In this document: positions 9,001 to 12,000 of the stretch, piece by piece | How positions within the stretch are numbered: the stretch's first letter is position 1 | Layout of the letters: each line of letters starts with the position of its first letter | Source: Escherichia coli | GTDB lineage: Bacteria > Pseudomonadota > Gammaproteobacteria > Enterobacterales > Enterobacteriaceae | Length of the DNA: 64,000 nucleotides | NCBI RefSeq assembly: GCF_009931435.1 | Contig: NZ_CP043414.1 | Strand: one strand, 5' to 3' | Position numbers: made by a program

Positions 9001-12000
9001 AAGCAACAACATAAACCCGTGATTGAACTGGAAGGGGCAGAAAACCAGATTGCCATGTTGCTCCAGCTCCCTGACAAAGGACTGGCGCTGCTGGACGATA
9101 CGCTGACCCACTGGCACACCAACGCTCGTTTGCTGCAACAAATGATGAGCTGGTGGCTGAATGCGCCGCCGCAAAATAATGAAATAACGCTGCCCAATAC
9201 GTTCAGTCAGTCGCTGTACGATGTGCTGATGCATCAGCGAAATCTCGCCTGGCGGGACAAATTACGCGCCATGCCGCCGGGACGCTATGTGGTCGCGGTC
9301 GGAGCTTTACATCTGTATGGAGAAGGGAATTTGCCGCAGATGTTGCGCTAAAAAAATGGCCAATATCGCTATTGGCCCGTCAAAGAGGAATTTCATTTTT
9401 TTATTATTATGCCGTCACTTTAAGCGACGGTGTAACTCGATTGTCGCTCAATCTCACCATCCTGCCAATACTCTTAGGCAAGATGACTCTTTTTTTTGGA
9501 CCGCCATCAGGCGTATGCTTGCTTCGTTTTTTTGTTTAAGGCAGGAAAATTACCATGACACCCGCAGTTAAATTACTCGAAAAAAACAAGATTTCGTTTC
9601 AAATCCACACCTACGAGCACGATCCGGCTGAAACCAATTTTGGCGATGAAGTCGTCAAAAAATTAGGTTTGAATCCGGATCAGGTCTACAAAACGCTGCT
9701 GGTGGCAGTGAACGGTGATATGAAGCACCTTGCAGTGGCCGTTACGCCGGTCGCAGGTCAACTGGATCTTAAAAAAGTAGCAAAGGCGTTGGGTGCCAAG
9801 AAAGTTGAGATGGCCGATCCGATGGTTGCGCAGCGTTCGACGGGGTATCTGGTTGGGGGGATTAGCCCACTGGGGCAGAAAAAACGCCTGCCGACGATTA
9901 TCGACGCCCCCGCGCAAGAGTTTGCCACTATTTTTGTTTCTGGCGGCAAGCGCGGGCTGGACATTGAACTGGCGGCAAGCGACCTGGCGAAGATCCTCGA
10001 TGCCAAATTTGCTGATATCGCTCGTCGCGATTAAGTGATGCACACGGAAGATGAGATGTGGAAAGGATTACAGAGACATTAAGTATCGCTTGTGCAGATG
10101 AGATACCGGATATCGCCTTACTTCGGCAAACATCGAGAGAAAAGGTATTACATCTGCATTTTGCCAGCGAAGCAGAGAGGTATCGTGAGGAATTCGGGCT
10201 GGTGCTGAAAGCACAGCTCGATGAATTTGTTGTTGGCATGCATTCTGCCGACCCGGTTATCAGGATCGCCAGATTAATATCGCTTGAAGAGATTAACCGC
10301 CATCAGGATTTTTTCGAACACTGCGCGAAAGAATATCGTAAGCTGGCGACAGAGCTTATATTTGCATTGGCTGAACAACTGAACGTTGAGATGGCGGAAA
10401 ATAACCCGCTAGTTACCTTTGCCCCCTTCAAATGCAACCGTAAGCGAAAAGGCAAAATGGGAAAGTGGCAGTATTGTTTTCATGGTTTTCATTGTGCATT
10501 TGAGAATAAAAAAACAGAGCAAAATATTGAAGTTCCCCTCGCCTACGGCTTTGATTTCGGCGATCTGGACCCGTATTTTTTTTCCGTATTTATCAAATCG
10601 ACCCCCGCCTGGCAGCCTCTGCCAGTGGCTATTTACGATGATTACCACGACGGCAGCAGGATCATTCAACAACTGCTGGCGCTGGGAAAGTTAGAAAAAA
10701 TCCCTTCACCGATCCCACAATACACGGGTGTTGCTGCGGTAGATTGGTCCAATGTCGACATCGCAAGTTTTCGCTCAACACTGGAGAGTCGCCTGCACCG
10801 ATGCAAATTACGCTGGCTTTTGAAGCATGTAAAAAACTCACAAAGGAGCGAAAGATGAAATTTGACCATCTTGTTGATGTTAGCTTCCACAATTTTGTCT
10901 TTAACGGAAAATTCGATTTTGTCGAACTGGGGCAAACAATGGCATGGTTGGAACAAAACTTTATTGAGCCGGACTCTAAAAATGATATGGGAAATGGTTT
11001 TTATATCTGGCTATTTGGTAATGTTGAGTTTCATTTCGAAAACAACAAGCTATATATGATTTGGTACGATTATCTGAGCCAAATCCATTTGGGCAAAGCG
11101 ATCCGATTTGATAAAGGAATATTGAATAACGTCGCTGAGTTGAACGTTACGCGTGTATTTAACATGCTTGTTAACGAAGGCGCTGATCTGCAAATCCACC
11201 GTCAATCGCCCCATACACTATTAATCCACGTCAATCGCTCAGGCGTGACACTTTGGTTTGAAGCAGATGAAGAACAGCCCGGTGAACCGCAGAATTATAT
11301 GCTGATGGCATTTGGTTTGACACATCGCGATTACGATGCAAGATTTCAATATTCATAAATGGCGGCGTCATATCATGACGCCGCGACAGGGTTCATTACT
11401 GCCAGCTCACCTCACCTTTCGGTTCATAGACACTCACATCCAGCGGCGAGTTTTTCTGGATATACGCTTTCAGCACTTCAGCATCAATAAAGCCGGTATT
11501 CACATAGCCCGGTTTGTTATCCAGACGCGGATAGCCATCACCGCCAGTGGCATTGAAGTTTAATGTCGCCATACGGTAAGTTTTCGCCGGATCGACCGGT
11601 TCGCCTTTGATTTTCAGGTCGTTCAGTTTGCCGTCTTTCGCCACAAAGCTAACGTTGGCAAATTGCGGATAGGCACCAGAATCAGGCTTCATTTGTGCGA
11701 CGGCGGTCAGGTAATCAATCACCTCTTTACCGGTCATGTCGGCATACACCACCACATTGCCGAATGGCTGCACTTTCAGCACATTTTTATAGCTGATATC
11801 ACCTGCTTCGATAGAATCACGAATTCCGCCTCCGCTCATCACCGCAAAGTCGGCACCAGTGCGATCCATTTGTGCTGCCAGAATCAACCGCCCCATATTG
11901 GTCTGTACAAAACGCACTTTGCTGCGGTCGCCTTCCAGACGACCATTGGTTTCGCCTATTTTCACTTCCAGCTGCGCTTTGCCTTTGTTCTGGAACGGTG

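What the first reader, a model, noticed from the sequence alone, without database searches (positions are those of the whole stretch)
9350..9434. ChiX sRNA terminator overlaps the ybaP stop codon
The reverse complement of ChiX is present in full; its U-tract coincides with the AAAAAAA run that includes the ybaP TAA stop, so the two convergent transcripts share a terminator region. Its presence confirms the ybaP-ybaK core context right next to the novel cassette.
Basis: partly seen in the sequence, partly recalled or inferred. Interest (0 to 1): 0.25.

Follow-up and report, generated by a model that had tools for sequence, protein, structure and literature searches.

The report
Known ChiX sRNA abutting ybaP stop
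This is the ordinary, already-annotated E. coli small regulatory RNA gene chiX, whose terminator tail overlaps the stop codon of the oppositely oriented gene ybaP by two bases exactly as in the K-12 reference genome, so nothing here is new.

Summary
Window 9350-9433 (minus strand) is a full-length chiX (Rfam sroB, 82.1 bits against a gathering score of 44). It is 84/84 identical to K-12 chiX, and the promoter and the whole ybaP-ybaK spacer are identical too. The ybaP TAA stop is at 9349-9351, and its two A's template the last two U's of ChiX. The K-12 annotation already records this 2-nt overlap. Published Term-seq places an abundant ChiX 3' end on the equivalent base.

The seed (9378-9389) is intact and perfectly complementary to the chiP ribosome-binding region and to the chbBC decoy.

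The claim that both transcripts share a terminator is only physically true. In the ybaP direction the hairpin has no U-tract after it, and no ybaP-strand 3' end appears in the K-12 Term-seq tables.

One addition from this work: among 115 species-level Enterobacterales loci, 87 (24 named genera) keep exactly this 2-nt TAA/U-tract junction. Other lineages have gaps, or ybaP reads into the ChiX hairpin.

The neighbouring "novel cassette" (a DUF6896 protein gene plus one hypothetical gene between ybaK and ushA) occurs in 774 of 5,426 complete E. coli genomes.

Verdict: already known, low interest.

The parts
9350..9433 (-). chiX (sroB/micM/rybC) small RNA gene, 84 nt
   Evidence: Rfam RF00368 full-length hit at 82.1 bits. 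84/84 identical to K-12 b4585.
9440..9468 (-). chiX sigma-70-type promoter: -35 TTGGCA (9468-9463), 17-nt spacer, -10 GACAAT (9445-9440). The RNA 5' end at 9433 lies 7 nt downstream.
   Evidence: Consensus scan. Sequence identical to K-12. Function is inferred, not tested here.
9412..9430 (-). ChiX 5' stem-loop (RNA nt 4-22)
   Evidence: MFE and centroid folds. Paired region in the Rfam consensus structure.
9390..9411 (-). A/U-rich single-stranded linker (CAUAAUAAUAAAAAAAUGAAAU). Probable Hfq distal-face (A-R-N-like) binding region of this Class II sRNA.
   Evidence: Sequence. Unpaired in the centroid fold apart from A/U pairing with the tail. Class II status of ChiX from PMC6239178. The assignment of this stretch to Hfq binding is inferred.
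9378..9389 (-). ChiX seed UCCUCUUUGACG (RNA nt 45-56)
   Evidence: Perfect 12-nt complement to CGUCAAAGAGGA just upstream of the K-12 chiP start codon and to the chbB-chbC spacer. Duplex energies beat shuffled ChiX in 494/500 and 500/500 trials. Upper-case conserved block in the Rfam consensus.
9358..9377 (-). ChiX intrinsic-terminator hairpin GGCCAAUAGCGAUAUUGGCC
   Evidence: Terminator scan, minus strand only. Fold. Two stem pairs show A-U to G-C compensatory changes across 48 species.
9350..9356 (-). ChiX 3' U7 tract (termination signal and Hfq proximal-face tail). The mature 3' end is at 9350.
   Evidence: Sequence. K-12 Term-seq 3' end at 507287, equivalent to window 9350, with 445,279 to 955,394 reads in three conditions. 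Role of U-tails in Hfq binding from PMC6239178.
9349..9351 (+). ybaP TAA stop codon. Bases 9350-9351 are shared with the ChiX U-tract (2-nt overlap).
   Evidence: ORF list and sequence. Same overlap in the K-12 annotation. The same junction is present in 87 of 115 Enterobacterales loci.
8557..9351 (+). ybaP (TraB/GumN family protein, 264 aa), convergent with chiX
   Evidence: ORF. Pfam PF01963, E=2.3e-44. RefSeq annotation of identical DNA.
9555..10034 (+). ybaK (Cys-tRNA(Pro)/Cys-tRNA(Cys) deacylase, 159 aa), divergent from the chiX promoter
   Evidence: ORF. Pfam PF04073, E=2.1e-22. RefSeq annotation.

Best explanation
Window 9350-9433 (minus strand) is the E. coli core-genome gene chiX, an Hfq-dependent trans-acting small RNA.

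Shown here:
- The sequence, promoter, seed, terminator and gene neighbourhood are identical to K-12.
- The terminator U-tract overlaps the ybaP TAA stop by 2 nt.

From the literature on the identical K-12 sequence:
- ChiX is transcribed at high, largely constitutive levels.
- It ends at the intrinsic terminator on the base equivalent to window 9350.
- It binds Hfq as a Class II sRNA.
- It pairs through UCCUCUUUGACG with the Shine-Dalgarno region of chiP mRNA to silence the chitoporin.
- It is itself titrated by the chbBC spacer decoy and by the ChiZ sponge when chitosugars are available.
- Residual read-through past the terminator runs antisense into ybaP and is stopped by Rho about 180 nt downstream (K-12 507468, roughly window 9169).

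Inferred:
- The overlap is a compact, ancient gene junction with two constraints on the same two bases. They are part of the ybaP stop codon, and they template the last two U's of the ChiX tail.
- The terminator works for chiX only. ybaP transcripts must read at least into it and probably through it.
For: Rfam full-length hit at 82.1 bits against a gathering score of 44. Identity to K-12 across chiX, its promoter and the whole spacer. The K-12 annotation carries the same 2-nt overlap. The region is present in 5,417 of 5,426 complete E. coli genomes. The promoter-like site is positioned for a 5' end at 9433, and a terminator is called only on the minus strand. The fold gives -24.1 kcal/mol, z=-3.9, with a 5' hairpin, an open seed and a terminator. 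The seed is complementary to chiP and chbBC. K-12 Term-seq shows the 3' end at 507287 in three conditions and a Rho termination region at 507468 antisense to ybaP. The ChiX-chiP, chbBC and ChiZ regulatory circuit is described in PMC7815308. Class II status and U-tail binding to the Hfq proximal face are described in PMC6239178. ChiX showed no significant expression differences across the conditions tested in PMC12266141. The junction is conserved in 87 of 115 loci from 24 named genera.
Against: No expression, Hfq-binding or target data exist for this particular strain. chiP and chbBC lie outside the window, so target presence in this genome was not checked. Where ybaP mRNA ends is unknown. The promoter call is only a 9/12 consensus match.
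Confidence: 0.97

Rival explanations
1. The hairpin at 9358-9377 is a true bidirectional intrinsic terminator that ends both chiX and ybaP transcripts. This is the functional version of the first reader's claim.
For: The stem is palindromic, so it forms in both transcripts. The ybaP stop lies at its foot. In the ybaP-sense fold, the A7 run can pair with the T7 run at 9395-9401 to extend the helix.
Against: On the ybaP strand the stem is followed by CGUCAAAGAGG and not by a U-tract. The T7 run is 17 nt away, and the scan reports a terminator only on the minus strand. The ybaP-sense fold is no better than shuffles (z=-1.1). No ybaP-strand 3' end is listed in the complete curated K-12 Term-seq table. 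In 19 of 115 species ybaP ends 3-230 nt before the hairpin, and in 5 it reads into the hairpin, so the arrangement is not obligatory.
Confidence: 0.12
2. ybaP transcription reads through the whole chiX gene, possibly into ybaK as an operon. That would produce an RNA perfectly antisense to ChiX. The convergent arrangement would then be regulatory, through RNA polymerase collision or transcriptional interference on ybaP, or through a cis-antisense sponge acting on ChiX.
For: No canonical terminator lies between the ybaP stop and the ybaK start on the plus strand. ybaK is on the same strand as ybaP in every locus where it was found. chiX read-through antisense to ybaP exists and needs Rho to stop it. 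One RIL-seq study relabelled reads annotated 'ybaP.EST3UTR' as ChiX, which shows the two annotations collide in practice.
Against: No ybaP-sense transcript across chiX is reported in the papers searched. ChiX accumulates to very high levels, so any antisense must be minor. The RIL-seq relabelling is most simply an annotation quirk.
Confidence: 0.15
3. The match is a chance resemblance or a decayed, non-functional copy of chiX.
For: None found.
Against: 84/84 identity to the functional K-12 gene, including its promoter. Rfam E=1.8e-10. Single copy at the syntenic site.
Confidence: 0.01

Closest known systems
E. coli K-12 chiX (b4585; synonyms sroB, micM, rybC; Rfam RF00368)
   Same: Identical 84-nt sequence, identical promoter and spacer, same position between ybaP and ybaK, same orientation, and the same 2-nt overlap with the ybaP stop codon.
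   Different: Nothing in the gene itself. The strain's surroundings differ from K-12: a DUF6896 gene pair inserted between ybaK and ushA, and a copA-ybaP spacer that lacks ybaQ and its REP elements.
Bidirectional intrinsic terminators between convergent genes (as catalogued by SEnd-seq in E. coli)
   Same: Convergent transcription units abut on a single GC-rich hairpin, with an A-tract on one side.
   Different: A U-tract follows the hairpin on only one strand, and a mapped 3' end is known on only one strand. The defining two-sided feature is absent.
Class II Hfq-dependent sRNAs (ChiX, MgrR, CyaR, McaS)
   Same: [quoted passage not shown]
   Different: None expected, because ChiX is a founding member of the class. 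Hfq binding was not tested for this strain.

Membership tests
ChiX / sroB (Rfam RF00368) | Covariance-model score above the curated gathering threshold over the full model | tested here: met
   82.1 bits against 44, model positions 1-83 of 83, E=1.8e-10.
ChiX / sroB (Rfam RF00368) | Sequence identity to the experimentally characterised K-12 gene b4585 | tested here: met
   84/84 identical. The flanking spacer is identical too.
ChiX / sroB (Rfam RF00368) | Location in the ybaK-ybaP intergenic region, antisense to both genes | tested here: met
   ybaP 8557-9351 (+), chiX 9433-9350 (-), ybaK 9555-10034 (+). Literature placement between ybaK and ybaP.
ChiX / sroB (Rfam RF00368) | Seed complementary to the chiP (ybfM) ribosome-binding region and to the chbBC decoy | tested here: met
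   12-nt perfect complement to K-12 chiP and chbBC. Duplex energies of -38.8 and -36.1 kcal/mol, against shuffled means of -27.2 and -18.0. The targets used were K-12's, because this strain's own targets lie outside the window.
ChiX / sroB (Rfam RF00368) | Rho-independent terminator with a 3' U-tract that defines the mature 3' end | tested here: met
   8-bp stem plus T7 on the minus strand. K-12 Term-seq 3' end on the equivalent base.
ChiX / sroB (Rfam RF00368) | Expressed as a ~84-nt Hfq-bound RNA that represses chiP | not testable with these tools
   Known for the identical K-12 sequence. There are no data for this strain.
Bidirectional intrinsic terminator | Hairpin flanked by an A-tract upstream and a T-tract immediately downstream, so that both strands read stem plus U-tract | tested here: not met
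   A7 precedes the stem on the plus strand, but the stem is followed by CGTCAAAGAGG. The nearest T7 run is 17 nt away. The scan calls only the minus strand.
Bidirectional intrinsic terminator | Mapped RNA 3' ends on both strands at the hairpin | tested here: not met
   The curated K-12 Term-seq table is held in full. It lists 507287 (+) for chiX in three conditions and no minus-strand (ybaP) end. Low ybaP expression could hide such an end.

The most novel reading that the evidence does not exclude
The 2-nt junction between the ybaP stop and the ChiX U-tail is an ancient, doubly constrained feature. It is kept in 87 of 115 species-level loci across three Enterobacterales families. It forces every ybaP mRNA to end inside, or run antisense through, the highly transcribed chiX gene. 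Convergent transcription would then couple ybaP (and perhaps ybaK) expression to chiX, through polymerase collision or an anti-ChiX 3' UTR. None of the papers searched describes such a layer of regulation.
Probability: 0.1. Interest if true: 0.35.

Novelty: already known. Interest (0 to 1): 0.08.

Why it matters
It matters little. chiX and its 2-nt overlap with ybaP are in the reference annotation and in published 3'-end maps. For this window the result is useful mainly as an anchor. It shows that the ybaP-chiX-ybaK block is unaltered core genome, so the strain-specific differences lie on either side of it and are themselves known accessory variants. The cross-species tabulation adds a small point: the stop codon and the sRNA tail have shared the same two bases since before the divergence of Enterobacteriaceae, Yersiniaceae and Erwiniaceae. 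Some lineages have nevertheless separated them or let ybaP read into the hairpin, so the overlap is tolerated compaction and not a requirement.

Tried and rejected
- I looked for direct evidence of a ybaP-direction terminator and found none. The consensus scan and the plus-strand folds of 81 nt and 221 nt show no hairpin-plus-U-tract after the stop.
- I tried to consult the SEnd-seq paper (Ju et al. 2019) for bidirectional terminator calls, but it is not held. Searches for ChiX with ybaP, with bidirectional terminator, and with antisense/RNase III/convergent returned nothing on a shared terminator or an anti-ChiX transcript.
- I considered arguing for active selection on the junction because the YbaP tail after the NLP motif varies from 4 to 8 residues within the 2-nt class. 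I rejected that argument, because in-frame indels upstream of the stop change tail length without touching the junction. Simple inheritance plus dual constraint is enough.
- I did not count the invariance of the seed in my 48-sequence alignment as evidence, because the loci were retrieved by exact match to that seed.
- RNAalifold on the MAFFT alignment recovered only the terminator stem. The 5' hairpin is too variable in sequence to be aligned by MAFFT, so Rfam's structure is used for it.
- One Pfam call failed because I gave the wrong frame for ORF2. It was corrected.

Full report
**Observation.** Scanning the whole window against Rfam gave a single sroB (RF00368) match at 9350..9433 on the minus strand. 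sroB is the Rfam name for ChiX/MicM/RybC. The match covers all 83 model positions and scores 82.1 bits against a gathering score of 44 (E=1.8e-10). The plus strand reads ...ATGTTGCGC TAA AAAAA TGGCCAATATCGCTATTGGCC..., and the 264-codon ORF at 8557..9351 ends with TAA at 9349-9351. Pfam assigns this ORF to TraB/PrgY/GumN (E=2.3e-44), which identifies it as ybaP. The next plus-strand ORF, 9555..10034, falls in the aminoacyl-tRNA editing family, which identifies it as ybaK. The ChiX 3' end (9350) and the ybaP stop codon (9349-9351) therefore share bases 9350-9351. The A7 run at 9350-9356 is the template for the ChiX U7 tail. The finding's end coordinate of 9434 is one base upstream of the RNA 5' end, and everything else it describes is present.

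**Comparison with the reference.** K-12 MG1655 annotates chiX at 507204..507287 (+) and ybaP at 507286..508080 (-), the same 2-nt overlap. Window 9330-9560 aligns to K-12 without gaps. The only difference is one base inside ybaP, so chiX, its promoter and the whole ybaP-ybaK spacer are identical. The region occurs once per genome in 5,417 of 5,426 complete E. coli genomes, which makes it core genome.

**Anatomy.**
- A sigma-70-like promoter (TTGGCA, 17-nt spacer, GACAAT; 9468 to 9440, minus strand) sits 7 nt upstream of the 5' end.
- The RNA folds at -24.1 kcal/mol (z=-3.9) into a 5' hairpin (nt 4-22) and the terminator hairpin GGCCAAUAGCGAUAUUGGCC (nt 57-76), followed by A and U7. The stretch between the hairpins is A/U-rich and contains the seed; the only pairing predicted for it is weak A/U pairing with the U tail.
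- The terminator scan calls this hairpin on the minus strand only.
- In an alignment of 48 ChiX sequences from different species, two stem pairs switch between A-U and G-C on both sides.

**Seed.** ChiX nt 45-56 (UCCUCUUUGACG, window 9378-9389) is a perfect 12-nt complement of CGUCAAAGAGGA immediately upstream of the K-12 chiP start codon. It also complements the chbB-chbC spacer. Duplex energies were reached by shuffled ChiX in only 6 of 500 trials for chiP and 0 of 500 for chbBC. The seed is intact, so the refutation criterion is not met.

**How it works.** This part comes from the literature on the identical K-12 sequence.
- ChiX represses chiP by pairing at its 5' UTR, which also promotes Rho-dependent termination in chiPQ.
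- ChiX is in turn sponged by the chbBC intergenic RNA and by ChiZ, a fragment of the chiP 5' UTR (PMC7815308).
- ChiX is a Class II Hfq-dependent sRNA. sRNA 3' oligo-U tails bind the proximal face of Hfq, and Class II sRNAs also use the distal face (PMC6239178).
- Its level showed no significant differences across the conditions tested (PMC12266141).
- Term-seq in K-12 maps a 3' end at 507287 (+), classified as 'primary chiX, antisense ybaP', with 445,279 to 955,394 reads in three growth conditions. That base corresponds to window 9350, inside the ybaP stop codon.
- The same study lists a Rho termination region at 507468 (+), antisense to ybaP. Read coverage upstream/downstream was 1492/22 without bicyclomycin and 2100/115 with it. 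The intrinsic terminator is therefore efficient, and the small amount of read-through into antisense ybaP is stopped by Rho at roughly window 9169.

**Is the terminator shared?** The two genes physically overlap, but the features of a bidirectional terminator are missing.
- On the ybaP strand the stem is followed by CGTCAAAGAGG. The nearest T7 run (9395-9401) is 17 nt away.
- The scan finds no plus-strand terminator at the hairpin.
- The ybaP-sense fold of 9330-9410 is no more stable than shuffled sequence (z=-1.1).
- A 221-nt plus-strand fold up to ybaK shows no hairpin-plus-U-tract.
- Supplementary file 1 of PMC7815308 is held uncut and contains no ybaP-strand 3' end, although low ybaP expression could explain that.

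I therefore rate a functional shared terminator at about 0.12. The alternative, that ybaP transcription reads through chiX and perhaps into ybaK, I rate at about 0.15 as a physiologically meaningful process. No paper in the searched library reports such an antisense RNA. One RIL-seq study notes that it treated 'ybaP.EST3UTR' as ChiX, which I read as an annotation collision caused by this overlap.

**Conservation of the junction.** Nearly all were Enterobacterales. The pattern does not include the U-tract or anything from ybaP. I located YbaP and YbaK homologs with tblastn, walked to each ybaP stop, and could assess 115 loci:

| ybaP stop relative to the ChiX U-tract | Loci | Lineages |
|---|---|---|
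| TAA overlaps the U-tract by exactly 2 nt | 87 | 24 named genera, including Escherichia, Salmonella, Citrobacter, Klebsiella, Enterobacter, Serratia, Yersinia, Rahnella, Mixta and one Pantoea. YbaP identity to the window's protein is 54-98%. |
| TGA overlaps by 1 nt | 4 | Pantoea |
| ybaP reads 17 nt into the hairpin | 4 | Kosakonia/Phytobacter group |
| ybaP reads 87 nt into chiX | 1 | Phytobacter massiliensis |
| Gap of 3-230 nt | 19 | Pantoea/Erwinia, Buttiauxella, Rouxiella, Hafnia and others |

Wherever a YbaK homolog was found (107 loci), it is on the ybaP strand; in all but one locus (Proteus cibi, where ybaK and ybaP lie about 2.4 kb away) it lies 119-377 nt upstream of the ChiX seed. 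Within the 2-nt class, the YbaP tail after the conserved NLP motif is 4-8 residues long. In-frame indels upstream of the stop explain that variation without invoking selection. My reading is that this is an old junction held in place because the same two bases serve both the stop codon and the sRNA tail, and that it is dispensable, since several lineages have lost it. The species are phylogenetically non-independent and the sample is truncated, so no probability is attached.

**Context and the 'novel cassette'.** The block copA (5624-8128), ybaP, chiX, ybaK and ushA (11396-13048, minus strand) is collinear with K-12 in reverse orientation. Three segments differ from K-12.
- Between ybaK and ushA, K-12 and the closest genome have 36 bp. 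The window has 1,361 bp (10035-11395) with two overlapping ORFs: 10058-10858, a DUF6896 protein (E=7.9e-14), and 10855-11358, with no Pfam match. This insert is found at 95-99% identity in 774 of 5,426 complete E. coli genomes and is annotated there.
- The copA-ybaP spacer (8129-8556) lacks K-12's ybaQ and REP elements. The full-length variant occurs in 346 genomes, and parts of it recur 2-8 times per genome.
- The window start carries the 3' part of siiEA and a TolC-family gene, present in 958 genomes.

All three are known accessory variants. The chiX block between them is unaltered.

**Verdict.** The 'shared terminator' inference is not supported as a function. The feature is already known and annotated. 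Interest is low (0.08). The most novel reading the evidence leaves open is regulatory coupling between convergent chiX and ybaP transcription at an anciently conserved junction. I give it a probability of about 0.1 and moderate interest if true.

Noticed in passing
window 10035-11395: A 1.36-kb insert lies between ybaK and ushA, where K-12 and the closest genome have 36 bp. It carries two plus-strand ORFs with an ATGA stop/start overlap: 10058-10858 (266 aa, Pfam DUF6896) and 10855-11358 (167 aa, no Pfam match), followed by a hairpin at about 11360-11385. It is present in 774 of 5,426 complete E. coli genomes. Its function is unknown, and the layout resembles a small two-gene accessory module.
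   Followed up: partly
window 8129-8556: The copA-ybaP spacer lacks K-12's ybaQ gene and its REP elements. In their place is about 360 bp of GC-rich sequence with inverted repeats (for example GGGGGCGGCGGCGATTGGCCGCCCCC). The full-length variant is in 346 of 5,426 genomes and is unannotated. Parts of it match 2-8 places per genome, so it contains a dispersed repeat element.
   Followed up: partly
window 1-2800: The window begins inside the 3' end of a giant BapA-related adhesin gene (siiEA), followed by a TolC-family outer-membrane protein gene next to ybaT. This accessory island is present in 958 of 5,426 E. coli genomes and absent from K-12 at this site.
   Followed up: partly
window 59131-59226 (+), 24514-24578 (-), 41383-41479 (-): Other Rfam gathering-score hits in the window are the sraA sRNA (106.7 bits), the dnaX programmed frameshift element (94.6 bits) and 4.5S/SRP RNA (65.8 bits). 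All are expected for this stretch of the E. coli chromosome.
   Followed up: no
L026 (Phytobacter massiliensis), L041, L048, L066, L094 (Kosakonia/Phytobacter group): In these species the ybaP reading frame lacks the TAA at the U-tract boundary. It continues 17 nt into the ChiX terminator hairpin (tail ...QKNGQ*), or 87 nt across most of chiX in L026. The same DNA would then encode a protein tail and the sRNA terminator or seed on opposite strands.
   Followed up: partly
K-12 506602 (L001, ushA/ybaK junction); window 10034-11396: In K-12, Term-seq maps the ushA 3' end at 506602, one base from the ybaK stop (506603), at a shared hairpin. This is a second tightly abutted convergent pair next to chiX. 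In the window the DUF6896 insert separates that pair.
   Followed up: no
PMC10954441 methods (K-12 ybaP 3' region, window ~9352-9450): A RIL-seq study states that 'ybaP.EST3UTR was considered to be ChiX'. The strand logic of that label is unclear. It may be an annotation artefact of the overlap, or it may reflect Hfq-bound reads on the ybaP strand.
   Followed up: no
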